DNA of 43,407 bases, filler included, from Jimgerdemannia flammicorona (lineage: Eukaryota): assembly GCA_003990765.1 (NCBI GenBank). It is 2 parts of 2 records of this genome, joined end to end, with 100 filler letters (N's around TTAATTAATTAA, not from the genome) between each part and the next. Parts side by side here need not be neighbours in the genome. Positions count along the whole stretch, not along the records: positions 1 to 21,654 come from RBNJ01001412.1; 1 more part is not named here. One strand, given 5' to 3'. Shown here piece after piece: positions 1 to 43,407 of the stretch. Numbering within the stretch: the stretch's first letter is position 1; each line of letters begins with the position of its first letter. The translations under genes and the position numbers were made by a program. The notes beneath the pieces are model-generated. The model worked only from the letters and a program-made list of their open reading frames with translations, searched no databases and was not told where the DNA came from.

Positions 1-122
1 GGCCCAACTTTGTATTATTATGAATAGTTGTGGGTTGGGTTCATTGTTGTTTTCAAGGTAATTGTAGAGACACATGGATAGTGTTCTCTTCTAGACTAGT
101 GGAATAAAGGAGTCCAAGCGAC

Positions 123-156
<34 letters not shown>
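1..156 (+). mobile_element. 3' UTR and poly(A) tail of a family C LINE
   Basis: Positions 1-110 are nearly the reverse complement of the 3' UTR at ~2815-2925. AATAAA at ~103, A-tail at 126-156. Confidence 0.85.

Positions 157-159
<3 letters not shown>

Positions 160-2761: not shown

Positions 2762-2765
<4 letters not shown>
157..2765 (-). mobile_element. Family B LINE (L1/Tx1-like), 5' portion: degenerate ORF1 and start of ORF2 APE endonuclease; cut off at 157
   Basis: ORF fragments 2733-2017, 1865-1611 and 1565-846 are homologous to 15977-17930. Endonuclease motifs LFLLQDVW and LGGNFN lie in 765-166. The 5' sequence GGCAATACTTTTGACAA matches 15933. Confidence 0.85.
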
Positions 2766-2806
<41 letters not shown>

Positions 2807-2941
2807 TAGAAGCTAGACTTTATTCCACTAGTCTATAAGAGAACACTATCCATGTATCTCTACAATTACCTTGAAACAACAATGAACCCAACCCACAACT
2901 ATTCATAATAATACAAAGAAGGGCCATTCAGCCCACCCCAT

Positions 2942-5900
2942 TCAGCCCACCCCTTCTTTCCACCTCACCCCCTTCTCACCAAGTACAAGGTGTTCCTGAC
3001 TTCTCTGAACAATGTCTAACACCTTCTTCATGGCCCCCAACTGGTGCCTCTTCCCCTGATACCACCACCCTTGCACCACTTCCAAGAGTAACCCCTTCCA
3101 CCGCTCCACTAATTCTCCAATACCCATCCAGGGATCCCTCTCAAACACCCATCACCAGTGTACCACCATCAGTACCCAGATGCCGATAATCTGACCCAGG
3201 CCTCCCCAGATGTCCCCAATTTCTCCCACCAGGCGATGCTTGATCACTCAACCAGTGGGGCCCCCTGCCCACTTACTCTCCTCCCCCCAATAACCCTCCA
3301 ATGTCTGCCAAAATCCTTTAACCCCCGGACAGGCTGCCAGAACATGCTCCGGCGTCTGCACTACTCCTCCATCCAGCTCACAACACCACTCACATTCCCT
3401 TACACTGTCTTCCACCATCCACCCTGTCCTGTACCCCAGCATGACGTTCCTCCACAGAAATCGCCACCATACCACCCAGAATTTGGGTGGGGCAATCTTG
3501 AGTAGAGAGATCCCCCAACCCCAAATCCAACCCCACTCCCATTCTTCTCCAAACCCAGCCTTCTGCCAACCCACCGGCCACCTCTCAAGCAGACCTGTCC
3601 AGATCCACTCCATCGCCCCTGACAAGGAGTATTCCACCAACTGGTGGCCGCCAATCCGAATCACACCAAGTCGCCACCATTGTCGATCTGGGTCCTCCTC
3701 TTCTTCGCCAGGTTCTGGGCCCATAAGGCCCATTGCCAGCCAAGCTTCCACAATACCCCACCAAAATCCCCTATAATGCAACCTGCTAACCCTTCCAACC
3801 TGGAGCAAACCTCGCATGTCCTTCCAAACCTCATTCCGGGGGCAGAACCGCACTTCCCAGTTGTCCATAGCCAGTTTGCTCCAGCCCTCCCCTCCTAATT
3901 CTGCCATCCGACAACCCCACCAGCCTCGGAGCACCTTAAGACGCCTTCTGAAGTCCACCAACCCCAGACCGCCATCTGCCCTCGTCATCACCATGATTTC
4001 CCAGCTAATCTGCGATCTCCTTCCCTACCACAGCCATCCTTCAACCACCTTCTTCAGCTTTTGAACCACCCATCCTGGAAAGTCCAGGTGGTACCCCAAG
4101 TACCACAGCTTCGGTAACCAATATACATTCAAGACTACAATCCTCCCAACCAAGGAGAAGCCTCTCCCAGACCAGCCCACCAAGGCATTCTCCCACTTCT
4201 GTATCATTCCACACCACCACTCTTTTGGCAGCACCGTCCCATAAACTGAGAACCAGATGCCCAGATATCGGACTGCTTCCCCAGGTCTAACCAAATGTCC
4301 AAAATGTCCATGCTCCGCCAACCCAGCTCCAAGCTCCATAGTCTCGCACTTGCCCCAGTTCAGCTTCACTCCAGCCAGCATCTCATACTGTCCTACCCCT
4401 TCCTGTAAACTTGCCACATCTTCCACACTGCCTAACCCTACTACCATATCATCTGCAAAAGCCCCCATCTTCCAGACCACATCCCCCATTCTCAATCCAG
4501 TAAGCCTCCCCTTCAACCACGCCAACAAGGGCTCCAAAGATAAAATGTAAAGCAGGGGTGAGAGAGGATCTCCCTGTGGCACACCTCACCCCAAGAGGAA
4601 CTCCGGACCACTCCACCCATTCATCAACACTGCAGCCCGGCAACCTCGCACCAGACCCATCAGCTTTCAAGCCTCCTCCAGATCAAACCCGATCTTCTGT
4701 AGAACTGCCTCCAAGTAGTTCCACCACACCCTGTCGTAAGCCTTCTCCTGATCCAAAAACACCATCCTTCCATCTACTTGCCGGCTTTGACAACCTTCCA
4801 AAACATTTTGCACCCATGCTGTGCTGTCTCTAATCTGCCTCCCCTTCACAAATCCTCGCTGTTCATCGCCCACCATTCGGCCAATCCATTGCTGCATCCT
4901 CCCTGCCAGAATCTTGGAGACCAACTTCCTATCCACATTCAGCAACATGATGGGTCTCCAATTTCGCCACACACGTCTGTCCCCTTTCTCCTTATAGAGC
5001 AGAGAGACTAGCCCTAAGGAGCCATTGCCAATCCAGCAGCCTTCCCCCAGTGTAAAGTTTGCCATTTCCACAAGCCATTCCCTAAGCTCAGTTTGAAACT
5101 CCTTCCAAAACTCCCAAGGCAGTCCATCCTCCCCCGGTGAAGAACCAGTCTGCGCTTTCCTCAGAACCTCTAACACTTCTTCAAGGGACACTCTACCCAT
5201 TACCACCCCACCAATTGCCAGCTCTGCCACCACTGGCCAGCTGTTGACCAAATTGTTATTGTCCTCCAGTGCTGCCTTTCCCTCTGCCAGCCCTCCATCA
5301 TCCTGCCATAGGGTGCACCATCGACCAGAAACCTCCTCTAGCATATCTGTGATATCGGTCACCTCAGTGCCATCCTCCTGCAATACTGAAGCCCAGCTGT
5401 GCCTCACCCTTCTGGCCTTCAAGATGCCAGACAAGTATTTGGTGGGTTGCTCTCCTTCCTCCAACTGCCTGGCTTGCAATCTTGCCAGCAACCCATCCAC
5501 CACCCTATCTTCTGCAGCCCTCAAATCTGACCGCAACTCTGCTACCTCCTTGATCAACAGGGAGCACCGTTCTCCTGAGGTATTCTCTCCCTCTAAAAGT
5601 CTCAACCGCCAGCACAGCCCCTGCTCCACTCTCCTCTCTCTATCCTTCTGCTCCCTTCCTGCTACCTCTCCTACATCACGCCAATATGCACCTGCCAGAT
5701 GTTTAAATTTCCCCCACCACTGTGCTATCGACTGGCCACTATTCTTCCACCGTGCCACTTCCTGTCTTGCAATTTCCACAAACTGGTCCCGCTCCACCTT
5801 TCGCTTGAGTAGTGCCACATTAAGTCGCCATCTGCCCCCACCACCACTGGCCGCCTGAAATCTCCCACACACCTCTACACCCCAGTGATCTGACCAGGGA

Positions 5901-6577
5901 CACCACCATATCTCAGTCGAATCCAAAACATTACCCCAGCGTTCCGCCACCAGAATCCAGTCAATCCTTGTACCCACCAAATCCTCACCAACCAGATGCC
6001 ACCTAGTAAATAGCCCTGATTTTTCACCTTGACGTTGTCATACTCCATCAACCAATCCCATTTCCTTCTCTACTTGAAGCCACCATGAGAGCCCTGTAGA
6101 GACTGCCACGCCGACTCCACCATCAGACCTATCTAATATCCTGTCACGAATCATGTTGAAGTCCCCTCCCAAAATATCCAGCCCAATCTCCTCTTGGCCT
6201 TCTCAATCCAGCCAACCTTCCACCCATTGGTTTCGCTCTCTGCCAACCGCTGGCAGATTCGCTGAGCCAACTGCAAGCCCATCACCTGCTCCTCCTTTCA
6301 GTCTCCCCCAGACCAACCTATCACTATACCTCTCGACCTCCTTCAGCTCTCCTCTCCCCAAGCCAACCAGAATGCCCACCTGCTCATTCCACCCTGTGCT
6401 ACCAAACCATTCCTTGCTCCACTCCTCATAATCTTGCTCCCCATAGGCCCGAACGTCCTGCAGAAATATCAAGTCATACCTCCTGTTCTTCAGCTACTGA
6501 AACAGATGCCTTCGCTTCACTCCATCACGCAAACCATTGACATTTAGTGATAATATTCGTAGACTGTTCATCATCAT
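2942..6577 (-). pseudogene. LINE ORF2 (APE endonuclease, reverse transcriptase, C-terminal CCHC), ~1210 codons, broken by in-frame stops
   Basis: Endonuclease motifs SLNVNG, IFLQD, GGDFN, RIDWIL, SDH. RT motifs SPGEDGLP, WRPIMLLNVD, DQEKAYD, PQGDPLSP, AFADD, YLGI. Zinc knuckle CEWC...PEH...C. All ORF-track fragments (6472, 5980, 4582, 3994, 3148) share one frame. Confidence 0.93.
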
Positions 6578-6589
6578 GAATATAAATGT

Positions 6590-8222
6590 TTAAATTTCCA
6601 CTGGATTCACTGCCACCTTCTCAGCCCTACCGCAAATAATAGCCTTCCATTCCTCACAGATACCCCTCCAGATGCATGCTCCATTCACCCCATCACAAAA
6701 GGCCGCCACTCGCTCTGATGCGACCTTCCTGATTTCAGCCATACGGTCCTCATCAACCTCATATCCTTCATCATCCAGAAGTGCCACCACCATTGCTGTC
6801 ACCAACTTTGGCCCTTGCAATGCCACATTGAGAAACCCTTCCCAGGCCTCCTGCGATCCATTAAACACATCCACTTCCTTAATATCCTCCTCCGCGAGTT
6901 CCTCGAGCACTGCCTGATACCAGTCATCAGCCATCATCACCATGGGCCCCGGGGTGGCCAGCCTTGGAGTCCTGCTCAGCTCCTGCAGCATCTCTCTATC
7001 TGCCGATACATCAGAAGCCACATCCACCAGATCATCCTCCTCAGTGCCCTTCTCCAGCCAAACCACTTCGCCTGCCTCTGGGCATTCCCAATGCACATTC
7101 GCTGCTCCTGCTATACGAACATCCTCCAACTGGGTCTCTGGTACCACCTCGACAACCTCCTCAAAGCACCCAGTGGTCACCTCCTCCTTGTCCACCCACT
7201 TCCCTGTCACTGGTGCATGGGTAGAATCCTCCACACCCCCTAGTTGTGAAAAGGACACCTCAGCCGTCTCCACCTCTCCCATTTGACTCTTGGCCATCTC
7301 TGCTTTTTCCTCCTCCTCCCTTTTCGAGCCCTGGAGGACTGTCTGCAGACGCTCCCAGTTTGTCCTTCACTACCTCTTCCTCTTCCCATCAGTTGGAATC
7401 CAGATCCAATCCTTGGCAAACTCCTCCCACCATCTCACCATATCTACCCAGCACCTCTACCACCATCTCCTTGGTCTCCTGCCTGCCCAGAGTAGGCAGT
7501 CCTTCTACCACCAGCCAAACAGCATGTAGATCCCATCTCAGACACCTCGCCATCCCAATCCAGACATCCTTGACTGTCATCCCTTTCTCCAGTGCCTTCA
7601 CCATCACCTCCTCCTTCACAAATCCAATCTCCACAGCCTCCACTGAAGGGATGAACTTCAGAGACTCTGCTCCAGTCACCTCCTCCCCCACCAGTCTCAG
7701 AACCTCTCTTGCTGACATCGCCAATCCCAGGAAGTTCGCCGAGATCACCAATGTTGACACTGATTTGTGAAAAAAGGGTCTCACCACCAGCTCACCAGTC
7801 CTAGCTGCCAGAGGCACCTTTCCTTTGACCCCCAAAACACCAGTAGTTGTCCCACCTGGTACAGCTGCACCACCTGCAGTCTTCTCCCCAGCCACCTGCC
7901 CAGCCACAGAAGAACCAGTCCCCAGCATCATGCCACCAGACCTCTGTCTCCTGCCAGCCACCTGACCTGTCACCTGACTTGTCACCTGACCTCTCTCCCT
8001 GTCAACACTATGTCCCCCCTGTCCAACCCCCATGGGTCTAGCTGCAGCCCTCCTATTCCCAACCACTGTATGCCAGGCCTCAATCCCTCCAGACCTCCCC
8101 TGCCCACCTGCCCCCTCAGCAGCCACACCAGTCCCTGCAGTAGCCGCAGAGCTCCTGGGAATCCCCAGGCCAGGCCTCCTACTCTCTAGACACTCAGAGC
8201 TAGAGGTATCTTAACTAGCCAT
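6590..8222 (-). pseudogene. Family C LINE ORF1 (low-complexity N-terminus, RRM-like region, acidic C-terminal domain), with an internal deletion
   Basis: ATG at 8222 with an early TAA. Fragments 8126-7389 and 7297-6590. About 240 bp present in the copy at ~14560-14800 is missing near 7430. Confidence 0.8.
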
Positions 8223-8393
8223 GTCACCAAAACTTGATGGTTTTCCCTGAAACTTGTTGTGCCTTGTAGATAGACTCCCGCTACACGATGTACACCAGTA
8301 TATTCAAAATAAAAACTTGCAAACATATTGTCTTTCACTGAAAGATGTCTGTGTGGCTTAGCTCTCTCTGAATAGTTTGAGCAAAAGAAGTCC

Positions 8394-8775
8394 TGTACCC
8401 TGGCCCCCCCCCCATGGGCCTAGCCATAGCCCTCCTATTTCCAACCACTATATGCCAGGCCTCAACCCCTCCAGTCCTCCTTGGCCCACCTGCCCCTCCA
8501 GCCACTACACCAGCCCCTGCAGCAGCTGCAAAGCTCTTGAGAATACCCAGACTGAGCCTCCTCCTCTCCAGATGCTCAGAGCTAGAGGAATCTTGACTAG
8601 CCATATTGCCAAAACTTGATGGTTTTCCCTGAAACTTGTTGTGCCTTGTAGGTAGACTCCTGCCACACGATATACACCAGTATGTTCGAAATAAAAACTT
8701 GAAAACGTGTTGTCTTTTGCTGAAAGATGTCTGTGTGGCTTAGCTCTCTTCGAATGATTCGAGCAAAAGAAGTCC
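8394..8775 (-). mobile_element. Second family C 5' end (UTR and start of ORF1), in tandem upstream of the full copy
   Basis: Direct repeat of ~8030-8393. ORF 8604 begins MASQDSSSSEHLERRR. Confidence 0.88.
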
Positions 8776-8883
8776 AATGCAAAGAAAGGTCACATCAGAT
8801 GGGTGAATAAGTATAAGTACCCTAGGCAAGAATACCCTGCAACTCTCATCCCCCTCTCCTCACAAAGAAAAGACAAGACAAGA

Positions 8884-9729
8884 ATACCTGCTACCTACAA
8901 CTAAGCTACCTGCCACCAAATTGCCTGCCATAGTCAGCCCCTTCCAAGCCAGGTTGACTGCCTCTTTGGACACATCCAGGTTGCTATCCAAGGAAGGAAC
9001 CACTGTTCAGAGGCCCTTAATCTCTCCAGCCAGGATCTAGGACATTATGTCCTCAACTGCTGTGAAGTCATCAAAAGAGCCTATCTTGCCACCAGCCACC
9101 TAGAGATCTGGTATACATATGAGATTGGCCATCAACTCCTCCAATGGGCAAAGGACCTGCCCATGGACCAAGTCTCTGATTGGACCTACCTAGATAGAAA
9201 CGAGCAAAGACTTGCCAAGAAGGTCCATCAAATCATGCACTATGTACCCTTTACAATCCCCAATCTTAACTATATCCAACTGAAGGATTTCCAGAACCTC
9301 TCCTTTCCCAAAGTTGATGAACTAGAGATCAAAGTAGCCCAAAAAGCCAACTCCTGGATCACCCTCCAGTCTACTGACTGTGAATCCTACTGGAGCCCCC
9401 TCCTGAATGACAACTCTGACCAATGACTCTAAGGCCTCTCTGACCTTTTTGAAGGACCACTTATCCAAATGGATATTCCCAGGCATGAAGATTAAGAACC
9501 CTACTTGGATGGCCCTAACTACATCAGATGGAGAACCCCTACACTAGCACCTATCCCAATACAAGAACCATTTGCAGACCTCATTGACTTCTTCATCCTG
9601 GACAGTGAGCCTTCAACAACCACCACCCTCTCTGCTACTGAAGAGGATACCAACAACTCTGAAGAGGATTCCCCACCTTTCTCTCCCCTAGTTCTCAATT
9701 TCCAAATCAACAAGGATGTTAATTTCTAA
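8884..9729 (+). pseudogene. Accessory ORF of unknown function (~281 aa) upstream of the PPT
   Basis: One frame joins ORF-track pieces 9163-9426 and 9505-9729. Presumed start ATG>ATA at 8884. Internal TAA/TGA stops are consistent with C>T changes. Homologous to 41454-40468. Confidence 0.75.
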
Positions 9730-9740
9730 GGGGGGAAGGA

Positions 9741-10539
9741 TGTAATAGAATGACTGAGCAAGTGAACAGATGGGACACAACAAGCGATGAGTGATCATGT
9801 GACCCAGCAAATGATGATGTCACCATATAAATGAAGCATAACATATGATATTACAAATGATGAATAATGAATGATGCAAAACGATGTAGAAAATGATATC
9901 CAGCTTATCTCCAACAACCAGTACCACAGCAATAGTTGCCACAGCAGCTGATCATTGTCTAGTAATTGAGATCTTGATCACAAAGTGTTTTTTGCCAAAA
10001 ACTACCTAATAAAGATCATGATCACAAACCTCACTATAGTTACCAAATTAGTCACTCATACTTAGTCAGAAATCATGGACCAACTTGTATAAATACCCCC
10101 CAGTTTCCATCTGAAATAAAGCAGTTTTAGTTCAGTCCTTGATACAAGAATCAAGTCCCCCCCCATATACATACATTCTCCTGAGTCTTAGTAATGACAC
10201 CTAAGTAACTCTAGTGTTTCTGACTAAACTCCAGAAGCCTAGCTAACTTCTGCCAAAACTGAGACCAGTATATAAATCCACAAAGACTTAAGTAAACCCA
10301 TTGAACCTGAATTCCAAGGTAAATTCAGTCTGTGCACAGCAAAGAACAAGACCCTCGAAATAGGGTACAAGAGAAAGACCTTTGAAACAGAAGGCACTGC
10401 CACTACAAACTACTTATAAGCAATTGCTTTCTCAAACTGAAGGCTTCTTGATACACATTGTATACTAAGTCCCTAAGTAATAGTCCACTTTCCTAATTAT
10501 CTAAAGGATAAAAGAGGGGTAGAAGTGAGAGTTATTACA
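9741..10539 (+). repeat. 3' LTR (~800 bp)
   Basis: TGTAATA...TATTACA 7-bp inverted ends, adjacent PPT, TGTATAAATA at ~10086 and AATAAA at ~10115. Confidence 0.82.
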
Positions 10540-11048
10540 ATACCAGTAAGTCGGATACTCACCATAAAGCTGGCCACATCACTGGATGAAAGATACCACT
10601 TCTCCTTGAGATCTTGCCAGTAGCTCTCAGAGCCTGCATTGCACTGTCTGGCCTACAAAGTGATAAAAACCTTGAATTCTTGAAATCTATAGCCTTGAGG
10701 TTGGGGTAACTCAATACCATTGGACTCCTCTTCTCTTACTGCTTCTGGTACATCCAACCTCAGAGCACTGATGGCCCCCCTTCTCCTGCACCATAGGGAT
10801 CCAATTTCTATCTGGATCTTTTGACCAGTATGGTTTGAGAGAAAGAAGTCTGGTGGAAATAGTGTTTGACAAAGTGGTCTTTTATCAAGAGAGAGTAAGA
10901 GGAAGAGTAGAGGGGGGGGACTCCCTAGGGGGATCAGATAGGGGTGGGCACTGTATATTATATAGAGGATAAACAGGTGTATTAGTAAAGGATGGAGTCT
11001 GAGTAACTATAAAAAAAAAAAATAAAAATAAAAATAAAAATAAATAAA
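10540..11048 (+). mobile_element. 3' end of a more divergent LINE with an A-rich tail
   Basis: Terminus GGAGTCTGAGTAACTAT plus A/(TAAAAA)n at 11011-11048 resembles GGAGTCCAAGCGACTAT plus poly(A) at 109-156. Confidence 0.6.
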
Positions 11049-11733
11049 TCCAATCTCAGGAAATTCACTGAGATCACTCACATCAATACTAATTTGTGGA
11101 AAAAAGGATACACCACTAGTTCTCTAGAGCTAGCTGCTATCATCACCTTCTCCATACCTCCTGAGACACCAGTAGTCACTCTACCAGCCCCAGAGAGCCT
11201 ATCTACAGTCTCTCTCTCAGCCACCAGTCCAGCCACTAGCCCAGCCCAAGAAATGCCAGTCCCAGCAGTCCCACTTCCAGACTCCTGTCCCCTGGCAGTC
11301 ACCTGACCTGCCATCTGTCCAGTCACCTGACTCCCCCCCCTGTCAACACTATATCTCCTCTGCCCTATCTCTATAAGCCTAGCAGTAGCCCTCCTGCCCC
11401 CCATCACTATATACCAGCCTTCGATACCAGCAGACTGTTGGTGACTACCTGTCCCTCCAGTATTAGCACCAGCCCCCACCACTGCTGCAAAACTCTTGGA
11501 GAGGCCCAGGCCAGGCCTCCTCCTCTCCAAGTACTCAGAGCTTAATGAATCTTAAGTTGCCATTTGATGAAAACTTGATGGATTTTGATGAAACTTGTTG
11601 TAAACTATTACCAGACTCCCGCTGCACCTAGTACACCAGTGTAGGTAAGTGAAAACTTGAAAATGTATTGCTTTTCATGAAAAGATGTCTGTGTGACTTA
11701 GCTTACTCTAGGTAGTTTGAGCAAAAGAAGTCT
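11049..11733 (-). mobile_element. Family C LINE 5' fragment
   Basis: Begins GACTTCTTTTGCTC. ORF 11530-11078 matches the family C ORF1 N-terminus (ELVVxPFFHK). Confidence 0.85.
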
Positions 11734-12610
11734 CTACTCTGTCATTACCTCCTCCACCCTCCTCCTAGTCTCAACCTTCATCACTGTAGGCACCCCCTTC
11801 ACTAGCAACTGAACCACACTGGGGTCTTACCTAAAACTCTACACCATAGAGACCACCATCTCTCCTACTACCACTCCAGTCTTCAAAGCTTCCTTCAGTG
11901 GACCTGCCTCCTCAAAACCCACCTCAACCCCCCTCCAGTCCCTTCAGAAACTTCACCAAGACAGCTCCAGCCACTTGCTCTGAGATAATCCCCAGAACCA
12001 TCATTGCTGTCACAGCCAAGCCCTGGAAACACAAGGTTGCCACAAATTTCAAGATTGATTTTTTGAGTAATAGTGCTACTGCCAGCCCTGTCACACCATC
12101 CACCAGATCTCCCTTCCTCTTTGGGCCCATCTGCCCAGCTCTGCTATCAACAATCACACCTGGATTTTTTTCCAGATTCCCAGTCATGCCACTATCAGCA
12201 GTCCCCCCCCTACTTCCAGCTGCTACTCCACTGGCCCTTCCATCCACTGGCTGAGGTTCAGCACCTCTCACTTCTCTTTCTCTCTACTTTCCCTTCTCTC
12301 CTGTCTGTCTGTCATAAGTACCAGTAGACCATCCACCAGTCTTCAGCATATCCACAAAGCTCCTCTCCCTCTGCCCTTCTGCCCTCCCTCCAGTACTGCT
12401 ACTATTGCCAGAACTGCCCTACCCACTCAGACCACTAAAAGACCCCATCTCTAGTCCATACTCTCTCCCAATATATTGCCAGTCAAAGGCTCTAGATCCA
12501 CCCAACCTAGTACATATGTATGTCAGCTTGCTTATTGATTACCATGACCTTAGTATCTTTCTCCAATAAACAGTTCAAAAGAGTGTTTTGAAGTTTGTGT
12601 TATGTGAATG
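11734..12610 (-). mobile_element. Family B LINE 5' fragment
   Basis: Begins CATTCACATAACACAAA (compare CATTCAGATGACACAAA at 15911). ORF 12271-11924 matches 16193-16918. Confidence 0.82.
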
Positions 12611-13087
12611 GTAGGAGAGAAAGATGACTATATACTTATGGAAAATTACCTTATCTCTTATGACCCTAACCCTAATCCCACTCTGTTCACATATTCTCTC
12701 TACCAAATGATGCCGCTGACCACCCTGCAGTTCCCAACCATACCACCAGCCCATCAGAGTATTCTCCATCAATTCTTCCCATTACAACAGTTGTGCCTCT
12801 AAGTCCAGATTTCTTCTATCCTCAAATACAAACAACCAGTGACTTGCCAACTCCATCCATACAGCCAGTACCCATCCTAAAGTAAGTCTCTCCTTCCCAA
12901 CCCCTCCCACCTATCTATCCTACAAATCCTCTCACTGACCCCTCACACCATTCTCCCTCTGCACAATATCCAACCTCTTCCCAACCACTATCCAGAAATC
13001 ACTGAACACCTTATACTCTCCTAGTCAATATTCAGGTATCTGCACAAAGCCCCCTTTCTGTCCAACATTGTAGTACTCCTCACAGTC
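12611..13087 (-). mobile_element. Family B LINE 3' fragment (ORF2 C-terminus from the zinc knuckle on)
   Basis: The minus strand reads CEEYYNVGQKGGFVQIPE...DFW...RDKVIFH, matching 21200-21654. Confidence 0.75.
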
Positions 13088-13610
13088 AATGGGGGAGTGA
13101 TGCAGTCACCAGAGTATGTCTTGGTGGATTGTCTGGGGATAGAAGAGTATTGACAGATACTGGAAGGATATTGGGGCCCATAGGGTGGGAGGCCTGGAGA
13201 ACCCACTAGTCTGGTAGTCAAGTGGTAGCTAGTTGAAGTACCTGGTGATGTCTGGGGTGGGCTGGGCTGGGTCCTTGGATTCTGAGTTCTGTTGGCAGTA
13301 TATTGGTAATAGGTGTTTAAGCAAAACCCTTGGATGGAAATAGAGGAGTTGGTTGAGAGTTAGAGGTGGTTCCTTTGGGAGGTAGTGCAAGAATAGTGAT
13401 ACCAGGGGAAGCATCAACAGCTGGGGGCCTTGAGAAAGATACAGGACATTATATAGAAGAGCTGTGGTAACCTTATGCTAGATGACCAAAGAGTGAGATG
13501 AAAGGAAGGAGTTGGCTGAGAGATCTTTCTCTGTATATAACTTAGTAGTAGTGGTGGTTAGATATTCAATATTATATTAGATTCTAGATAATAAAAGAGT
13601 CCAAGGAATA
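13088..13610 (+). mobile_element. Family C LINE 3' fragment (ORF2 C-terminus and 3' UTR, no poly(A))
   Basis: Reads GGVMQSPEYVLVDCLG...EGYWG...YQGKHQQLGA...KEGVG*, matching 3370-2942. Ends AATAAAAGAGTCCAAG. Confidence 0.78.
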
Positions 13611-15894
13611 GGACTTCTTTTGCTCAAACCACTTAGAGTGAGCTAAGCCACACAGATATCTTTTTGTGAAAAGCAATACATTTTTAAGTTTTCACTTTAC
13701 CTACACTAGTGTACTAGGTGCAGCAGAAGTTTGGCAATAATTCACAACAAGTTTCATCTGAATCTGTTGAGTTTTCATTGAATGGCGACTCAAGACTCAT
13801 CAAGCTCTAAGTGCTTGGAGAGGAGAAGGCCTGGCCTGGGCTTCCCCAAGAGTTTTGCAGTGGTGGCAGGGGCTAGTACTGCTGCTGGAGGGACAGGTGG
13901 TCAGCAGAGGTCTGCTGGCATCGAAGGATAACATATAGTAATGGGGGGCAGGAGGGCTACTGCTAGGCCCATGGGGGTAGAGCAGGGAAGATGTAGTATT
14001 GACAGAGGGGGAAGTCAGGTGACCACCAGGGGATAGGGGTCTGGAGGTGGGATGGCTGGGACTGGTATTTCTAGGGCTGGGCTGGTGGCTGAGCTGGTGG
14101 CTGGGAAAGGAACTGCTGAGGGGCTCTCTGGGGCTGGTGGGGTGACCACCAGTGTCTCAGGAGATAAGGAGAAGGCAACAATAGCAGCTAGCTCTAGAGA
14201 ACTAGTGGTGTGTCCTTTTTTCCACAAATCAGTATTGATGTGGATGATCTTGGCAAATTTTCTGGGACTGAGTTTGTCTGCCAGAGAGGTTTTGCAGCTG
14301 GTGGGTGAGGAGATTGCCGGCACAGAGTCCCTGAAGTTTATTCCATCAGCAGAGGCAGTGGAGATTGGCTTTGTGGAGGAGGAGGAGATGGTGAAGACCC
14401 TGGAGAAAGAGTTGGTGGTCAAGAGCATCAAGGTTAGAATGGTGAGGTGTCTGAGGTGGGTTCTACATGCTGTACATCTGGTGGTAGAAGGGCTGCTAAC
14501 TCTCAGGAGACAGGAGACTAAGTAGATGGTGGCAGAGGCACTGGTGGGCTTTGGTGAGATAGTTGACTTCAGATTTATGTTCTGGGAGAGGACTAAGCTG
14601 AGAAATAGTAACTGTAAGATTATAGTGAGGCTGGAGAGCAAGGAGGCCATGGAGCAAGGAAGAGACTGACCAGAGATAATTTGTGTTGGAGGGTAGGAGT
14701 GTAAGGTGTAGAGAAGGAAAGAATCTGAACAGGAGGAGGAGGAATTGCTGCTTGCCCTAGAGGAGAGAGAGACTACAAAGGAATTGCAGAAGAGGAGATG
14801 GGAGGAGTTCACTAAGGACTGGATCTGGATTCTGATGGATGGGAGGAGAAAGAGATAGTAGAGGGCAAACTAGGAGTACTTACAGACAGTTCTCTAGGGC
14901 TCAAAAGTGGAGGAAGAAGAAAGGACAAAGATGGCTAAGAATCAGATGGAAGAGGTGGAGATGGCCAAGGTGTCCTTTTCACAACAGGGGGGAGTGGAGA
15001 ACTTGGCTCATGTGCTGGTGAAGAAGAAGTAGGCCAATATGGTAGAGGTGAATGTAGGGGATCTTGAGGAGGTTATTGAGATAGTACCAGAGACTCAGTT
15101 AGAGGATGTTCATATGACAAGAGCTGCAAATGTTCATTGGGAATATCCAGAGGCAGGTAAGGTAGTGTGGCTGGAGAAGGGTACTGAGGAGGATGACCTG
15201 GTGGATGTGGCCTCTGATGTATTGGCAGACAGAGAGATGCTATAGGAGCTGAGTAGGACTCTGTGGCCTACCACCCCTAGGCCTCTGGCAATGATGGCTG
15301 ATGACTGGTATCTGGCAGTACTTGAGGAACTTACAGAGGAGGATATCAAGGAAGTAGATGTATTTAATAGATCACAGGAGGCTTGGGAAAGATTCCTCAA
15401 TATGGTATTACAGGGGCTGAAGTTGGTGATGGCAATGATGGTAGCACTTCTGGATGATGAAGGATATGAGGTAGATGAGGCCCATATGGCTGATATCAGG
15501 AAGGTGGCTTCTGAGTGAGTGGATATCTTCTGCAGCAGTGTGAATGGAGCCCATATCTGAAGGGCTATCTGTGAGGAATAAAAGGAAATAATCTGTGGTT
15601 AGACTGAAAAGGTAGTGGTGATTCTGGTAGAGCTTTAAACATTTCTATTCATGATGAAGAATAGTCTATGTATCTTATCATTAAATGTTAATAGTCTGCA
15701 TGATAGAGTGAAGCAAAGGTGTCTGTTTCATTGGCTGAAGGTCAGAAGGTATGATGTGGTATTTCTTCAGAATATTTGAGCCTATGGTGAGCAAGATTAT
15801 GAGGATTGAAGCAAAGAATAGTATGGTAGTACAGGTTGGAATAAGTAGGTGGGAATTTTGGTTGGCTTGGGGAGAGGTGAGCTGATGGATGTGA
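13611..15894 (+). mobile_element. Family C LINE 5' half (UTR, complete degenerate ORF1, start of ORF2)
   Basis: GGACTTCTTTTGCTC at 13611. Fragments 14052-14525, 15039-15245 and 15291-15518 match family C ORF1. SLNVN motif at ~15680. Confidence 0.88.
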
Positions 15895-15910
15895 GATGTT
15901 AGTACTGCAA

Positions 15911-21654: not shown

Positions 21655-21754
21655 NNNNNNNNNNNNNNNNNNNNNNNNNNNNNNNNNNNNNNNNNNNNTT
21701 AATTAATTAANNNNNNNNNNNNNNNNNNNNNNNNNNNNNNNNNNNNNNNNNNNN
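21655..21754. other. Assembly gap with synthetic all-frame-stop linker TTAATTAATTAA
   Basis: 44 N + TTAATTAATTAA (21699-21710) + 44 N = 100 nt. Confidence 0.95.
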
Positions 21755-29635: not shown

Positions 29636-30011
29636 GCAGAGTTCATAGGGTTGGATTCAGGGTCAGATTCAGGAGTCAGGTTCAGGGCCAGGTTCAGGGG
29701 TCAGATTCAGGTTTAGGTTAAGGGTAAATAACAGGTCAGGTGATATATATTTCCAGGTCAGATTAAAGATGGATTATGTTTAATTCTGGGTCAGGTTAAA
29801 GATGGATAATATATCTTTCCAGGTCAGGTTAAAGACAGGTGACATACAATTCTGGGTCAGGTTAAAGATGAGTGATATATAATTCTGGATCAGATTAAAG
29901 ATGAGTGATATATAATTCCAGGTTAGGTTAAAGATGGGTGACATCTAATTCCGAGTTGGCTGTTTTATAGGTTGGGTTTTGGATTAATTGGGTCAGATTT
30001 ATGGAGCACTA
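29636..30011 (+). repeat. hAT right subterminal repeats (12-bp and ~33-bp units) and probable right TIR ending GGAGCACTA at 30011
   Basis: About six copies of GTCAGGTTAAAGATGGGTGATATATAATTC-like units at 29755-29952. The terminus reads TAGTGCTCC on minus, resembling the MITE TIR at 30379/30750. Confidence 0.7.
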
Positions 30012-31753: not shown

Positions 31754-32166
31754 CATCTTAATATAATATATCACAGATCACATAATGTTGTGCCAGTATT
31801 TAATCATAATTATGTATTTTAAAAACTTTACTTTTTTTTTTTTTTTAACGGACTCTAAGTCCCGCGGATTTTTATTGGAAGGGAACCTTTATTTCGTGGA
31901 CATGTGCATTGTTAGCAACCGGAAATGGAGGTGACCCGTCTCGTCGGGAAGTGACCGTCTCACTGAGTATCGAAATGTGTTTGTTACACTATACTGAATT
32001 GCGGCAGCTGAAAGGGGTTTCAGAGCGTGCTACCAGCCTTACCACTTTGCAGCAGCAATAATGGCGTGTGTCATGCGGGACACCCGGTCCTGTTGGTTGG
32101 GGCAAATTCGGCGCCAAACAAAAATCTACGAAATTCAACTCTGCTCATTCCAATTCCATCGCAACC

Positions 32167-39016: not shown

Positions 39017-39587
39017 TGTGGCATTGGTTATGTATAATGAACTTCAACTGCATGGCTCAATATGTGCCACTAGTGAAGCATGCGATGGATAACTGAATAC
39101 GTTGGTGACGTTCGCGGGTCATTGATCACGTGATTGGCTTGTTCGATTCATGCAGTAATTGATAATAGCGGGAGTTTGTTCGACGATGGCTCAATTGTTT
39201 AGTGGATAAGGGCAATGATTATGCTGGCTAAGTTTCCTGGTGGCAATTAACTTGGCAGCAAACTCGAATTTATATGGCAATGACAGGCTTGCTCTTTATG
39301 CGGTCAATTAAAGTGGGCGATGGTCTTGACTTTAAGCAGTTCGTGGCACAATAGGTCGGGAAAATGGAGGTTGATGGCTTGCTCGTCTGTCTTGACTTAT
39401 TAACTTGAAAGATTCCTGGTGGTCGTTCAGGTCTTTGGCAGCGGGTCAGTCTTTTGGCAGTCTAGTATCCTTGGGTTCCTTGGTTTTCTGGGTCTTGAAT
39501 CTCGAATGGTGGCGGTCAAATGCACAGTCCGAATGGTGGTCGAATGGTGGTCTGAATGGTGGCGGTCGGGTATCGTTTTCTTTCCGT

Positions 39588-40065
39588 GGCAAGAGAAAAT
39601 TCTTTAACTCAAACTTCCAAGCGATCCATTGCTCTAGGTTGTTATCTTGTTCTCAGAATTTATCTGGTCTCTTGGAGGTAGTGTGTTTTCTCTGTAAAAC
39701 TATCTGGCTTGCGGGTGGTCCGTGGTCTTGAATCCTTTTCATGGCAGCAAAAAAACTTGAAATTCGGGTGGCAAGAGAAATTCCTTAACTCAAACTTCTG
39801 AGCGATCTGTTGCTCTAGGTTGTTATCTTGTTCTCGGAATTCCATTCTCTTGGAGGCAGTGTGTTTTCTCTGTAAAACTGTCTGGCTTGCAGGTGGTCCG
39901 TGGTCTTAAATCCTTTTTGTGGTAGCAAAAAAACTTGAAATTTGGATGGCAAGAGAAATTCCTTAACTCAAACTTCTGAGTGATCTGTTGCTCTAGGTTG
40001 TTATCTTGTTCTCGGAATTCCGTTCTCTTGGAGGCAGTGTGTTTTCTCTGTAAAACTGTCTGGCT
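39588..40065. repeat. ~180-bp tandem repeat (about 2.6 copies) in the LTR region
   Basis: GGCAAGAGAAA..TTAACTCAAACTTC starts at 39588, 39770 and 39948. Confidence 0.9.
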
Positions 40066-40229
40066 GAGGTTTATTCACTCTAAGAATATGGGTTATTTAT
40101 ACAAGTTTGCTAGCTATGGGTGAGGGGGCATAACTAAGGCTAAGGTATACTATGTTGTGGCGAACTTATGCTATTGGTTTGCATGATGCGAGGTGCAGGC
40201 TATTGTTTACTACAGATTGGGTTGTAGGG

Positions 40230-40425
40230 GATAGTAACGCTGGATTCGGACCTGCTGACAAAATGCTGAAAACGGTGGTACTGGGTAGCAATGCTGGATT
40301 CGGATGAGTTGACATGATACGATGATTGTTGCCAGAAACAGTTGTGGAGGGTGGCAATGCTGAATTTGGACCTGCTGACAAAATGCTGAAAACGGTGGTA
40401 CTGGGTAGTAACACTGGAAACGGAC
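40230..40425. repeat. 120-bp-period direct repeat with ~60-bp subunits
   Basis: GGACCTGCTGACAAAATGCTGAAAACGGTGGTACTGGGTAG occurs at ~40248 and ~40368. Confidence 0.85.
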
Positions 40426-40467
40426 TTGCTGACAAAAGCTGGGTTCTCACGGCTGATGGGTGGTACT

Positions 40468-41454
40468 CTAGAGGAAATAGTACCCTTCGTCCATGGTGGG
40501 CAAATCTTGCTGGGTTGTGATTTCTTCTTCATCATATCTCTCCTCAAAGGGGGGAAGTGCCGGCCAAGAGGTGAGGGGGTAGAAAAGTGGCCAGTTATCT
40601 TCAACAACATTTTCCAATCCTTGAACAGCTTGAATGCGGACAGAGGACTGGTAGACTCTCTGTTGCTCCTCTTTTTCTTCTGAAGACTCGTCAGTTTCGG
40701 TGTCAGAGGGGGTTTCTTCAGGGGCAGGGCCTTGGAGTTCTTGGGCCTCCTCTTTAAAGACAGGAACTTCTTGGGCTTCTTTTTGATTCAGTTTCCAAAT
40801 GATGAGGTGTGAATTGTGGCTGACAAGGTGGTGGGTGGTTGGGGTAGCTCCAACGGGTGCTTCTATGGTAATGGGCGGTCCTTCAAATATCTCTATAAGA
40901 CTCATTAGGTGACCTTGATGGTTGTCTCAGAGTGGGGTGGTGTGGAAACCTGGCTGAGTAGGTTCGGTTTGTTGGCTTCCTACGGCAATGCAGTTGCTGC
41001 CAATAGCATTGGCTACTTCAGATTCTATCCAGTCAGCATCTTCAGTTGAAAGGTGGGAGAGGCTGCCAGCTGTTACTTCTTGCAAGTGTGCTATAGCCTA
41101 GGGAATATGGCGGAAGATTTGATGGACACAGAGGGCTCTCTTGATTAGCCGGCTGGTGGTTAACATTTCGGCAATGAGGTCTTCCTGGTCACCTTCTTGA
41201 GTCTCATTGCAAAGGCGGTGTCCGATTTCATAGTCATGCCAGAGGGTCATTTGTTCGGTAGTGTCTTTGAGCTGTTGGGTCATTATATACCAGTAGTTGA
41301 TGAAGTGTCCAAGGTCCTCAGTGTAGAAGTTCAAGTGTTTGAAAGTATCTGGATGCCAGATGGCCTTCTTGATAGCTTCAAAGATCAGGGTCTTTGGGCC
41401 AGGCAAAGGGGTAGAGCAGTGGGAGGTCTGGTTGGTTCGGCGAATGGGAGGCAT
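40468..41454 (-). pseudogene. Accessory ORF of unknown function (~328 aa) downstream of integrase
   Basis: ATG at 41454 (MPPIRR). One frame runs through 40468 with two stops (TAG at 41100-41098, TGA at ~40929). Homologous to 8884-9729. Confidence 0.78.
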
Positions 41455-43407
41455 TGTGTGGTGGGTACTTGGTTCTTTGGTGCTGATCCTTGAGGCAGAG
41501 TATAGTTCCTTAAATAATGTGGTCTTCATTTTGGCTCGGATCATCTTGTCTTCTTTTGGGATGATCACCTAATGGGTCAGGCTGTCTATTTGATTGTCAT
41601 GCCATTATATCATCTGATCTTAGCAGTCACCAGTACTCCATTGTCAATTGTGTACGTCACATCTGCCTCTTGCAAAATTAGAGCCATTCTCAGCAGTGAG
41701 GGTTACACAGAGTTGGGTGGTCTTAACTCCAAGGACAAGCAGAATACTGGCGCATTTGTGAGGACTGGCCATCCTTGTCTAGGGCGAGGGCTCCCATAGT
41801 CGCAGCTGGGGGTTCAAACCCATCGGAAATAGTATTACTTGTAATCTGAGGCAATTTCTTAGTAACAATGTCTATCACATGGATGGGCTTGAGTCTGGTT
41901 CCAATGTTGTTGGCTTTCTTGAGTTCCGAGTGAAACGTCCATCATATCTCCAGCAGAGATAACACAGACAGAGTGAACAGGATTGTTCAAATGCATTTTG
42001 CTTCTCTTGAGTAGTAGAGTCTTATGTGGTTGCGATGTATCTTGGTCTTGAGTATAACTTCATCCAAGGTCTTGAGTTAATAAGTGTGGTTCGAGAATAC
42101 TTGATATATGAGATAGGGGCCTTCCCATTTTGGTTCAAGCTTGGCACTCCAATTTCCTTCTATGATGGTATGGTACACCAGAACCTTTTGTCCAATGAGC
42201 AGGGGTTCGAGGTCGGCTTTGCAGTCGTAGTACCTCTTTTGGTGTTCTTGTGCCTTGGTGATAAATCCTCGTGCTTGCTGGCATATATCATGTAACCGGG
42301 TGATCTCTTCTGTGACTCGTTTTGACAGATCTAGCTGGACTGATTCAGTAGGATCTTGTGCTTCTCGGCCATACACCAAATAGAAGGGGGTCTGTTGGGT
42401 AGCAGTTGCCTTAGAGGTATGGATGCTGAACAGAATTGCTGGTAGATAGATACATATTCCAGTTTAGTTGATCTCCGGTTCTACTGAGGCCTTGCTTGAT
42501 GGTCTGGTTCATTCATTCAGTGAGTCCATTTGCCTGTGGGTGGTAGGCTGTTGTTGGTCGTAGCTTGATCTTGAAGTTGCTTGCAAAGGTCTTCATGGCT
42601 TGGTTGACGAATTCTTGGCCTTGGTTGGTAATGATTTCCTTGGGCACACTATGGCAGCTGAAAATTTCATTATACAGGATCCCAATAATTGTCTGGGCAT
42701 CGGCAGTCTCGATGGCAAAGGCTTCAGGCCATTTTGTCAGGTGGTCTTCAATAGTGAGGATGTAGCGTCTTCCTCGGCTGGTTATTGGTAGGGGTCCAAT
42801 AATATCTATTCCCAGTCTTTGAAAGGCTCCAGCTGGTGCTGCGATCGGTATTAATGGTGCTCTGTTGGTAGGCTTTTGTCAGTATCTTTGGCAGATATCA
42901 CATTGTTGAATATGGGTTGAAATTTGTTTTCTCATCTTGGGCCACCAGTATCACTTCTTGATTCTTGCAATTGTGGCACCAATTCCTCGGTGTGCATTTT
43001 GGTCATGATTTGTTATCAGGATCTTCAATACTTCTTCCTCTCTTGGAACTCGGGTGTACTGCTCTCCTTCTACTCTCCAAAGTTCGCCGTCGCCTTCTTG
43101 GAATTTCTTGAAATTCCTTTGAATAAACAACTTGTGGGCTGGTTGAATTCCTTTCTTGAAGCTTCTGTGGTGCAGACTCCAGGTGAGGGCGAGGCACAAT
43201 TCTTGGTTCATTTGGGTGAGTGGGAAGCAGCCTTCTCTTATGGGGGCTCCTTCCCTTCTTGTTGGTTTTGTGGGATTCACAACAGGGTATCGACATTGGA
43301 ATTCTTAGCACCTTTCTTGTAGACAATAGTGAACTGATATTCTTGCAGAGACATGATCCATCTAGTGAAGATTCCTGAGGGCTCCAGCTTGTTGAACAAC
43401 TATTGTA

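What the first reader, a model, noticed from the sequence alone, without database searches (positions are those of the whole stretch)
8884..9729. Conserved non-env accessory protein at the 3' end of two divergent LTR retrotransposons (partner at 41454-40468, minus)
Seen: reading through the stops gives two proteins that align over ~230 aa despite no obvious DNA identity. Blocks: QPLPSQVDCLFGHIQVAI / TPLPGPKTLIFEAIKKAI; LNLSSQDLGHY / LNFYTEDLGHF; IWYTYEIGHQL / LWHDYEIGHRL; AKKVHQIMHYVPFTIPNL / ALCVHQIFRHIP*AIAHL; LSFPKVDELEIKVA / LSTEDADWIESEVA; DNSDQ*L*GLSDLFEGPLI / DNHQGHLMSLIEIFEGPPI. Both end in an acidic Ser/Pro tail. Both lie in the sense orientation at the env position, and each has a TATA-like motif ~55-70 nt upstream (TATAAGTA at 8812; TATTTAAG at ~41516 minus). 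Neither has a signal peptide, transmembrane helix or chromodomain. Known: extra ORFs in Ty3/Gypsy elements are usually env-like, or lineage-specific as in plant Athila/Ogre/Retand. Inference: this is a separately expressed, selected third gene of a fungal Gypsy lineage, for example an anti-silencing or targeting factor. I do not recognise the family.
Basis: partly seen in the sequence, partly recalled or inferred. Interest (0 to 1): 0.82.

Follow-up and report, generated by a model that had tools for sequence, protein, structure and literature searches.

The report
Third gene of a fungal Gypsy retrotransposon
Two decayed copies of a previously unnamed protein-coding gene lie between the integrase gene and the final repeat of Gypsy-type jumping elements, probably in a soil fungus; the protein has been kept by selection, resembles nothing known, and its job is still a guess.

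Summary
Frames A (8884-9729 +) and B (41454-40468 -) share a protein alignment of 27% identity over 233 aa (66.6 bits; z = 25 against 1000 shuffles) with no significant DNA identity.

An HMM of the pair found 10 true relatives among 1.84 billion proteins. All come from metagenomes and are unnamed or 'hypothetical'. Several are intact ORFs of 202-342 aa, and most full-length ones begin Met-Pro.

One environmental contig (L001) carries an intact 291-aa ORF. Its stop codon abuts a polypurine tract and an LTR start (TGTAATA), exactly as in A. B lies about 530 nt downstream of a Ty3/Gypsy integrase.

A's upstream neighbour is not a Gypsy pol. It is the 5' end of an L1-like LINE on the opposite strand.

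A versus L001 gives dN/dS of about 0.19. There is no Pfam, PDB-sequence or fold match. The model shows a confident helical domain of about 140 aa and a disordered, strongly acidic tail.

Verdict: a real, selected third gene (ORF3) of a Gypsy lineage, probably in a Mucoromycota fungus. This is a new protein family of a known kind (additional ORFs in LTR retrotransposons). Separate expression and function are not shown. My preferred guess is a non-enzymatic nuclear adaptor or transactivator. Interest 0.5.

The parts
8780..8883 (+). Leader upstream of ORF3 copy A, with TATA-like TATAAGTA at 8812-8819. Similarity to the L001 leader begins about here. To the left lies the 5' end of a minus-strand LINE.
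8884..9729 (+). ORF3 copy A, decayed. ATA replaces the start codon; internal stops at 8902, 9424, 9430 and 9493; no frameshift; terminal TAA at 9727-9729.
   Evidence: (HMM score 316.6).
9730..9742 (+). Polypurine tract GGGGGGAAGGA directly after the stop codon.
   Evidence: The same arrangement is present in L001.
9743..10990 (+). 3' LTR of element A. It starts TGTAATAG. It holds the block AACTTGTATAAATACCCC at 10082-10099 and AATAAA at about 10115. The end is uncertain.
41987..43407 (-). 3' part of pol of element B, decayed, running off the window. Integrase_H2C2 at about 43040-42882 and rve at about 42824-42537. A GPY/F-like end (KWEGPYLI, read by eye). The stop after ...SREAKCI is at about 41989-41987.
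41747..41791 (-). Block of 45-46 nt, 80% identical to L001 10-55. It lies about 290-320 nt upstream of the ORF3 start in both. Function unknown.
41509..41516 (-). TATA-like TATTTAAG, 62 nt upstream of the ORF3 ATG of B.
40468..41454 (-). ORF3 copy B. ATG kept; internal stops at 41100 and 40929; no frameshift; terminal TAG at 40470-40468.
   Evidence: (HMM score 325.0).
39030..40467 (-). Region after ORF3 B, presumed 3' LTR with both ends uncertain. It holds 120-nt repeats at 40221-40434, the block AACTTGTATAAATAACCC at 40107-40090, AATAAA at about 40074, and 178-nt tandem repeats at 39668-40023.
8016..8779 (-). Two 382-nt 5' monomers of an L1-like LINE that abuts copy A. This is context, not part of the element.

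Best explanation
WHAT IT IS
A and B are two dead copies of ORF3, a third gene carried by a Ty3/Gypsy LTR-retrotransposon lineage between the end of pol and the polypurine tract / 3' LTR.

THE PROTEIN (about 200-340 aa in intact relatives)
- It is soluble and non-enzymatic as far as any library can tell.
- A conserved Met-Pro start followed by a short basic stretch.
- An all-helical domain of about 140 aa (LN(L/F)..DLGH, W.(E/D)YEIGH, HQIFRH.P).
- A conserved DN.DQ.LQGL...FEGPPI segment.
- A disordered, strongly acidic Ser/Asp/Glu tail. It holds short hydrophobic motifs (F.DLI.F; acidic run + P-L-V-L-N-F) at or near the C-terminus.

SHOWN HERE
- It is coding and has been under purifying selection.
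- Its place in the element.
- Intact copies exist in the environment.

INFERRED
- It is translated from its own start codon on a subgenomic message, made either from an internal promoter at the TATA-like motif 62-80 nt upstream or by splicing.
- It acts as an adaptor. The folded domain would hold on to an element component or element DNA. The acidic tail would recruit a host factor.
- My preferred version is a nuclear regulator of the element's own transcription or silencing, that is, a transactivator or anti-silencing adaptor in the manner of the regulatory genes of complex retroviruses.

ODDS
- Genuine selected ORF3 of a Gypsy lineage: about 0.9.
- Translated as a separate protein: about 0.75.
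- Adaptor with a host-recruiting acidic tail: about 0.5.
- Specifically a transcriptional activator or anti-silencer: about 0.25.
For: Real homology:
- 66.6 bits; z = 25 with 0 of 1000 shuffles reaching the score.

The family:
- The HMM of A+B against 1,835,955,588 representatives gave 11 proteins at E <= 1e-3. Ten are judged true, five of them at E <= 1e-30.
- Relatives are intact ORFs of 202-342 aa.
- Five of the 7 relatives that reach the aligned start begin Met-Pro, as does B.
- L001 has in-frame stops 20 and 27 codons before its ATG.

Selection:
- A versus L001: 267 codons, pN 0.256, pS 0.669, dN/dS 0.19. Core 0.145, tail 0.45. Differences by codon position are 0.33 / 0.23 / 0.47.
- A versus B: identity is highest at codon position 2.

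Position in the element:
- B lies about 530 nt after the end of an integrase with H2C2 (E 2.3e-15) and rve (E 3.4e-9).
- In A and L001 the stop codon is followed at once by a G-rich polypurine tract and TGTAATA.
- An 18-mer, AACTTGTATAAATA(C/A)CCC, occurs exactly twice in the window. Both copies lie about 355-365 nt after an ORF3 stop, on the matching strand.

Architecture:
- Domain model has pLDDT 79 and pTM 0.69 and is helical. The tail has pLDDT around 30.
- Tail net charge is -4 to -22 in all 11 members that have a tail.
- No TM-like stretch.

Possible expression signals:
- TATA-like motifs 62, 72 and 80 nt before the start in B, A and L001.
- A at position -3 of the ATG in L001 and B.
Against: - No RNA evidence of any kind. 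No RNA run was listed, and the runs laid were contigs.
- Both window copies are dead.
- Only three loci give DNA context (A, B, L001), and none holds a complete element. 'Always between integrase and LTR' is therefore 3 of 3 partial cases, not a survey.
- The seven other environmental clusters could not be placed, because their contigs could not be fetched.
- The TATA-like motifs are short A/T words that occur often by chance. A and L001 share theirs by descent.
- The helical domain is near neutral (pI 5.2-9.2), not the basic surface expected of a typical DNA binder.
- The only DNA-binding look-alikes (ParB/SopB/KorB/VirB HTH, sigma region 4) score Z 2.9-3.7. That is no better than unrelated rows.
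- The reading of the tail motifs (activation-domain-like, SUMO-interaction-like, LIR-like) rests on recalled consensus patterns seen by eye, not on a test.
- dS is saturated (1.67), so the dN/dS value is rough.
Confidence: 0.6

Rival explanations
1. Integration-targeting factor. ORF3 tethers the pre-integration complex to chromatin or to a host protein. It would stand in for the chromodomain that most fungal Gypsy integrases carry at their C-terminus.
For: No chromodomain or other Pfam family follows the rve/GPY-F end of B's integrase. ORF3 has a folded domain plus a tail of short linear motifs. That most fungal Gypsy elements are chromoviruses is recalled, not tested here.
Against: No contact with integrase or chromatin was tested. 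The protein is acidic overall. Only one pol C-terminus, a decayed one, could be read.
Confidence: 0.15
2. Particle, chaperone or transfer function. ORF3 helps to assemble, stabilise or move virus-like particles, for example between hyphal compartments. It would be a non-membrane substitute for env-like ORFs.
For: It holds the env position. A chaperone role has been proposed for plant ENV-like aORFs (passages of PMC7264820).
Against: No signal peptide-like or TM-like stretch (maximum KD19 1.19). No coiled-coil fusion core. No match to viral proteins in BFVD (best E 0.044).
Confidence: 0.1
3. Not a separate gene. It is a C-terminal extension of pol reached by readthrough, frameshift or splicing, and later cleaved.
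For: The 45-46 nt block conserved between B and L001 lies between pol and ORF3. The frame after B's pol stop stays fairly open for about 240 nt.
Against: The conserved Met-Pro start. In-frame stops 20 and 27 codons before the ATG in the intact L001. About 530 nt lie between B's pol stop and the ATG. No hit longer than 342 aa among the true hits of a search with no length limit.
Confidence: 0.08
4. A captured host gene fragment carried along passively, with no role for the element.
For: Gene capture by LTR retrotransposons is known (passages of PMC7264820).
Against: The same position is kept in lineages that have diverged to 27% identity. dN/dS is about 0.19. No paralogue with another architecture appears among 1.84 billion representatives. 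All 17 cluster members are short metagenome gene calls.
Confidence: 0.05
5. Chance open frames with no coding meaning.
For: Both window copies contain stops.
Against: z = 25. Ten relatives, down to E 3e-67. Codon-position pattern.
Confidence: 0.01

Closest known systems
Sense additional ORFs between pol and the 3' LTR of plant Ty3/Gypsy elements (aORF-3S, 'env-like', e.g. Athila/Bagy2 type)
   Same: Same place and orientation in the element. Conserved across copies. Function unsettled. Splicing has been reported for some (passages of PMC7264820 read).
   Different: The plant ORFs are called env-like because many have transmembrane domains. ORF3 here has none and matches no Pfam family. The host is probably a fungus. 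No direct sequence comparison with the plant ORFs was run, because none was at hand.
Non-env ORF3 types of bdelloid rotifer LTR retrotransposons (GDSL esterase/lipase, DEDDy exonuclease)
   Same: They show that LTR elements pick up varied third ORFs that are not envelope genes (abstract of PMC5408684).
   Different: Those are recognisable enzymes. ORF3 here matches no enzyme family in Pfam, no solved structure by sequence, and no fold.
Foamy-virus Tas/BTas transactivator with internal promoter
   Same: A small 3'-proximal accessory gene next to the 3' LTR. The BTas abstract, seen only in the search listing (PMC4929722), says it binds the LTR promoter and an internal promoter. ORF3 has a TATA-like motif upstream and an acidic tail. 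That acidic hydrophobic tails are typical of activation domains is recalled.
   Different: No sequence or fold relationship. DNA binding, activation and an internal promoter are all untested here. This is an analogy of layout only.
Chromodomain of chromoviral integrases
   Same: An element-encoded module at the 3' end of the coding region that could direct the element to chromatin (recalled).
   Different: ORF3 is a separate ORF, is helical, and is not a chromodomain (no Pfam hit).
ParB/SopB/KorB-type helix-turn-helix DNA-binding domains
   Same: Five of the 50 best VIA rows for the full model cover residues 71-180 with such domains (Z 3.0-3.7). Two such rows appear for the domain model (Z 2.9-3.1).
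   Different: The scores are no better than unrelated rows and lie far below the Z of 8-13 that the tool gives as background for helical models. This is not a membership.

Membership tests
Ty3/Gypsy (Metaviridae) LTR retrotransposon (element B) | Integrase with N-terminal H2C2 zinc domain and rve catalytic core, downstream of RNase H | tested here: met
   PF17921 E 2.3e-15 and PF00665 E 3.4e-9 in one frame of the minus strand. rve also scored 5.6e-11 on an open segment. An RNase H-like tail at the window edge was read by eye only.
Ty3/Gypsy (Metaviridae) LTR retrotransposon (element B) | Gene order PR-RT-RH-INT, with gag upstream | not testable with these tools
   The element runs off the window at 43407, and no whole genome is held.
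LTR retrotransposon (elements A, B and L001) | Polypurine tract directly before a 3' LTR that starts TG | tested here: met
   A: GGGGGGAAGGA + TGTAATAG. L001: GGAGGGAGGAT + TGTAATAAG. Both are aligned. For B no clear tract or TG start was found, so the feature is met for 2 of 3 loci.
LTR retrotransposon (elements A, B) | Two matching LTRs with target-site duplication | not testable with these tools
   Only the 3' side of each element lies in the window. No repeat of either LTR was found in the window.
Retroviral / errantiviral env-like ORF3 | Signal peptide and transmembrane anchor or fusion core | tested here: not met
   Maximum 19-residue Kyte-Doolittle mean is 1.19 in 14 family sequences. 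This is a crude test and the threshold is recalled. No env family in Pfam.
Chromodomain | Match to a chromo-type domain | tested here: not met
   No Pfam hit at E <= 1 in 14 family members, nor in the three frames of 39301-43407 at E <= 0.1.
GDSL or DEDDy enzymatic ORF3 (rotifer types) | Match to the enzyme family | tested here: not met
   No such Pfam family was found. The best stray hits have E 0.034-0.18, each in 1 of 14 members.
Tas-like retroelement transactivator (function, not homology) | Sequence-specific DNA binding to the element's promoters | tested here: inconclusive
   Only weak HTH look-alikes (Z <= 3.7). Domain pI is 5.2-9.2.
Tas-like retroelement transactivator (function, not homology) | Acidic activation domain | tested here: inconclusive
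   Composition fits: tail net charge -4 to -22 in 11 of 11 tails, and the tail is disordered. Activity cannot be tested here.
Tas-like retroelement transactivator (function, not homology) | Own promoter or spliced subgenomic mRNA | not testable with these tools
   Only TATA-like motifs are seen. No RNA run was listed.
ParB-type HTH domain | Fold match clearly above background | tested here: inconclusive
   Z 2.9-3.7, rmsd 3.6-7.7 A, 79-89 residues aligned.

The most novel reading that the evidence does not exclude
ORF3 is a regulatory gene of the element. It would be a new-fold protein made from its own subgenomic message that returns to the nucleus and, through its acidic motif-bearing tail, switches on the element's LTR or blocks its silencing. 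That would make this a 'complex' LTR retrotransposon in an early-diverging fungus, with a trans-acting regulator analogous to Tas or Tax of complex retroviruses but evolved independently.
Probability: 0.2. Interest if true: 0.8.

Novelty: new variant of a known kind. Interest (0 to 1): 0.5.

Why it matters
Extra genes in LTR retrotransposons are the raw material from which retroviruses gained env and regulatory genes. Very few non-env examples have a known role, and I know of hardly any from fungi.

This family has three useful properties:
- It is small and clearly selected.
- It has a confidently predicted domain with no detectable relative in Pfam, the PDB or viral structure models.
- Intact copies exist in soil metagenomes.

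It therefore offers a tractable case for asking what an LTR element gains from a third gene: transcriptional control, escape from silencing, or targeting.

It also shows that gene callers and repeat masking have left the family without a name. All 17 database members are unnamed or 'hypothetical' metagenome proteins.

Tried and rejected
They were replaced by 193 stop-free segments and short X-read stretches.

2. No whole genome is held. Copy number, complete elements and a genome-wide check of context could therefore not be done.

3. The search for related loci:
- Alignment A2 was too diverse.
- A3 in metagenome contigs gave 1 locus, L001, out of 196 pattern matches.
- Viral contigs gave none with A3, P0005, P0017 or P0020.
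- Prokaryote genome contigs gave 1 locus, L002. It is an archaeal DNA-ligase-like ORF sharing only the words DDTPDQWLQP. It was rejected as chance.

4. The search for homologous proteins (word-indexed) recovered only members already known.

5. P0007 (2356 aa, 23 matched stretches) was dropped as a coiled-coil repeat artefact.

6. Sequence and fold searches:
- PDB by sequence: best E 0.21.
- Foldseek against PDB: no match at E <= 1e-3 for either model.
- BFVD: best E 0.044.
- VIA wide: best Z 3.8 and 3.6, with 0 of 48,161 chains at Z >= 5.

7. ESM Atlas:
- For ORF3 the recognition value was below the tool's level. The best rows score 0.89-0.92 and are unnamed. One row is Mucoromycota. This is a lead only.
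- For the LINE RT the taxa were mixed and uninformative.

8. Sequencing runs: no RNA holder listed. There were six rows from 4 studies (five labelled soil metagenome, one a coded organism), each holding a share of 0.05-0.17.

9. Laying four runs (contigs only) put 815, 69, 67 and 22 pieces on 39000-43407 at 80-99% likeness. The differences are mostly transitions. This shows relatives of element B in those runs and nothing about expression.

10. LTR limits of B: a break at 40118 in the laid contigs looked like a boundary. The loose letters resemble the window sequence with an indel, so it was rejected.

11. A as a LINE-made retrocopy of a subgenomic mRNA, suggested by the A-rich tract at 11011-11050. 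Rejected as unsupported, for three reasons. The fragment includes the TATA-like motif. The AATAAA lies about 900 nt earlier. The roughly 17 nt before the tract resemble LINE 3' ends at 109-125 and 2804-2809. A very short 5'-truncated LINE tail fits better.

12. Earlier findings of the scan: nothing held.

14. Rfam and tRNA scans of the window: nothing.

15. Literature: word searches listed no paper on such an ORF in fungal Gypsy elements. These are word searches, not sequence searches, so they cannot show that the family is unpublished. No supplements were read.

Full report
1. THE OBSERVATION

Frame A (8884-9729, +) and frame B (41454-40468, -) were translated with X at each stop.

- BLASTP aligns them over 233 residues at 27% identity, 66.6 bits, pairwise E = 1e-16.
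- A local alignment scores 166, against 35.6 +/- 5.2 (maximum 64) for 1000 shuffles of B. That is z = 25, and no shuffle reaches it.
- The other two frames of A score 31 and 34.
- There is no significant DNA identity. The best piece is 28 nt at E = 0.039.
- Along the protein alignment, identity is highest at codon position 2 (0.40 / 0.57 / 0.37).
- A family HMM finds only these two copies in the six frames of the window.
- A has ATA in place of the start codon and four internal stops. B keeps its ATG and has two internal stops. Neither has a frameshift.

2. THE SURROUNDINGS

Pfam scans of all 193 stop-free segments of 70 aa or more, together with the repeat map, show L1-like LINE copies, not a Gypsy element, in 1-8779 and 11046-22000.
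- Hits on the minus strand: endonuclease PF03372 at 169-810, and RVT_1 at 4028-4585 and 4670-6037.
- Hit on the plus strand: RVT_1 at 19378-19926.
- The copies are nested, with 382-nt tandem 5' monomers at 8016-8779.

Copy A is therefore a 3'-terminal fragment of about 2.2 kb, wedged between LINE pieces. Its pol is not in the window.

What shows A's place in an LTR element is its downstream side. The stop codon is followed at once by GGGGGGAAGGA and then TGTAATAG. This is a polypurine tract followed by an LTR start.

Copy B is preceded on its own strand by a decayed Ty3/Gypsy pol end.
- Integrase_H2C2 (E 2.3e-15) and rve (E 3.4e-9) are present.
- A GPY/F-like KWEGPYLI was read by eye, and no chromodomain follows.
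- Pol stops at about 41987, roughly 530 nt before the ORF3 ATG.

The two downstream regions share one 18-mer, AACTTGTATAAATA(C/A)CCC.
- It occurs exactly twice in the window (0 expected).
- Both copies lie about 355-365 nt after an ORF3 stop on the matching strand, each followed by AATAAA.
- It is probably the LTR promoter.

3. RELATIVES ELSEWHERE

A profile of A+B was searched against 1.84 billion representative proteins with no length limit.
- It gave 11 proteins at E <= 1e-3, five of them at E <= 1e-30.
- I dropped one, P0007, a 2356-aa coiled-coil repeat with 23 matched stretches.
- The ten clusters kept hold 17 members. All come from ENA or JGI metagenome assemblies, unnamed or 'hypothetical protein', mostly on contigs of about 1 kb.
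- Several are intact ORFs of 202, 205, 246, 247 and 342 aa.
- Five of the seven that reach the aligned start begin Met-Pro, as does B.

The single contig I could fetch, L001 (1535 nt), shows the following.
- It holds an intact 291-aa ORF.
- In-frame stops lie 20 and 27 codons before its ATG.
- TATAAAAG lies 80 nt upstream.
- A stop codon is followed at once by GGAGGGAGGAT and TGTAATAAG, the same architecture as A.
- Its first 55 nt include a 45-46 nt block that is 80% identical to 41791-41747. In B that block lies between pol and ORF3, at a similar distance from the ATG.

All three loci with DNA context agree with 'after pol, before the 3' LTR'. None is a complete element, and the other clusters could not be placed.

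4. SELECTION

A against L001 (267 codons, 57% amino-acid identity):
- pN 0.256, pS 0.669, dN/dS about 0.19.
- The core gives 0.145 and the tail 0.45.
- Differences by codon position are 0.33 / 0.23 / 0.47.
- dS is saturated, so the ratio is rough. The direction is clear.

This fits with the open frames kept in relatives that share only 21-58% identity with the L001 ORF, leaving aside the near-identical P0003 at 95%.

5. THE PROTEIN

- No Pfam family at E <= 1 beyond stray single hits.
- No solved structure by sequence: best E 0.21.
- AlphaFold2 on the 14-15-row alignment gives a helical domain. The domain-only model has pLDDT 79 and pTM 0.69.
- The domain-only model is followed by a low-confidence linker, then a short conserved helix and two short strands over the DN.DQ.LQGL...FEGPPI segment. 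The tail, present only in the full-length model, has pLDDT around 30.
- Foldseek finds nothing at E <= 1e-3 in the PDB for either model, nor in BFVD.
- An exhaustive alignment to 48,161 PDB representatives gives best Z of 3.8 and 3.6, with none at 5 or more. The tool states that models without clear matches usually reach Z 7-8.
- The ParB-type HTH rows (Z 2.9-3.7) do not stand out.
- The tail is acidic in all 11 members that have one (net -4 to -22).
- No TM-like stretch exists.
- By eye, the tail holds F.DLI.F and 'acidic run + P-L-V-L-N-F' motifs. These recall activation-domain, SUMO-interaction or Atg8-interaction motifs. That reading comes from memory and is not a test.

6. HOST

No genome is held.
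- The 409-aa ORF at 32062-33288 has one named relative: a hypothetical protein of Jimgerdemannia flammicorona (Endogonales, Mucoromycota) at 51% identity.
- One weak Atlas row for ORF3 is also Mucoromycota.
- Four runs that were laid hold many short contigs 80-99% like element B. Three are labelled soil metagenome and one carries a coded organism name.

A soil Mucoromycota fungus is the best guess, at about 0.7.

7. EXPLANATION

The secure part: ORF3 is a selected third gene of a Gypsy lineage, present here as two dead copies.

The inferred part: it is translated from its own Met-Pro start on a subgenomic message. It works as a non-enzymatic adaptor whose acidic tail recruits a host factor. 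My preferred version is a regulator of the element's transcription or silencing.

Rivals are an integration-targeting factor, a particle or chaperone role, a pol extension, and a passive captured gene. They are listed with their odds in the rival explanations.

Nothing here shows expression. The layout analogy with foamy-virus Tas rests on an abstract seen in a search listing (PMC4929722).

8. WHAT IS KNOWN

Additional ORFs between pol and the 3' LTR are an established kind.
- Plants: passages of PMC7264820.
- Bdelloid rotifers: abstract of PMC5408684.

This protein matches none of the described types that I could test (env-like, GDSL, DEDDy, chromodomain). Word searches listed no paper on such an ORF in fungal Gypsy elements. 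Those searches cannot exclude one.

I rate it a new variant of a known kind, interest 0.5. It is a solid, nameless, selected family with a possibly new fold, but no functional evidence yet.

Noticed in passing
window 1-8779, 11046-12515, 13601-~22000: Several copies of an L1-like LINE (PF03372 endonuclease + RVT_1). The sense strand is strikingly G-rich (GC skew about +/-0.45-0.5). There are 382-nt tandem 5' monomers at 8016-8779, 11357-11732 and 13601-14023. A 5'-truncated copy (about 2804-6330, T38 at 2766-2803) is nested inside another.
   Followed up: partly
window 41747-41791 (-) and L001 10-55: A block of 45-46 nt, 80% identical between otherwise unalignable spacers, lies about 290-320 nt upstream of the ORF3 start in both. 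In the laid soil contigs several pieces break at 41748 and 41926. It could be a cis element (promoter, splice site or packaging signal) or the end of pol in intact copies.
   Followed up: partly
window 10994-11050: An A-rich tract (A12 followed by TAAAAA repeats) at the end of the A fragment. The roughly 17 nt before it resemble the sequences before A31 at 126-156 and (reverse complement) T38 at 2766-2803. It is probably a very short 5'-truncated LINE tail, so the true end of A's LTR is uncertain.
   Followed up: partly
window 39668-40023 and 40221-40434: Tandem repeats of 178 nt (94% identical) and 120 nt (82%) inside the presumed 3' LTR of element B, on either side of the conserved TATAAATA block.
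   Followed up: no
window 32062-33288 (+): An intact 409-aa ORF in a GC-rich island (GC 0.52) within a region of 23-29% GC. It has no Pfam hit and is 51% identical to a Jimgerdemannia flammicorona hypothetical protein. By eye it has a D...E.K nuclease-like motif (GRGDLVF...VVETKY).
   Followed up: partly
window 27947-29560 (+) and 29740-29985: A decayed, AT-rich hAT transposase remnant (PF05699 dimerisation region, E 7e-16, at 29309-29560), followed by six 33-nt-spaced tandem repeats.
   Followed up: no
window 21710-23016 (-): A ribonuclease III domain segment (PF00636, E 6e-8, at 22783-23016). A downstream open segment may continue the gene. It looks like a host gene next to the scaffold gap.
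   Followed up: no
window 21655-21698 and 21711-21754: Two runs of 44 N (88 in all): a scaffold join. The protein database holds a window-encoded protein on a contig of 21,653 nt.
   Followed up: no
window 39000-43407 versus laid contigs: Differences between the window copy of element B and soil-metagenome contigs are overwhelmingly transitions. In run X1: A>G 77, T>C 61, C>T 48, G>A 49, against 1-7 for each transversion class. This fits decay by cytosine deamination.
   Followed up: no
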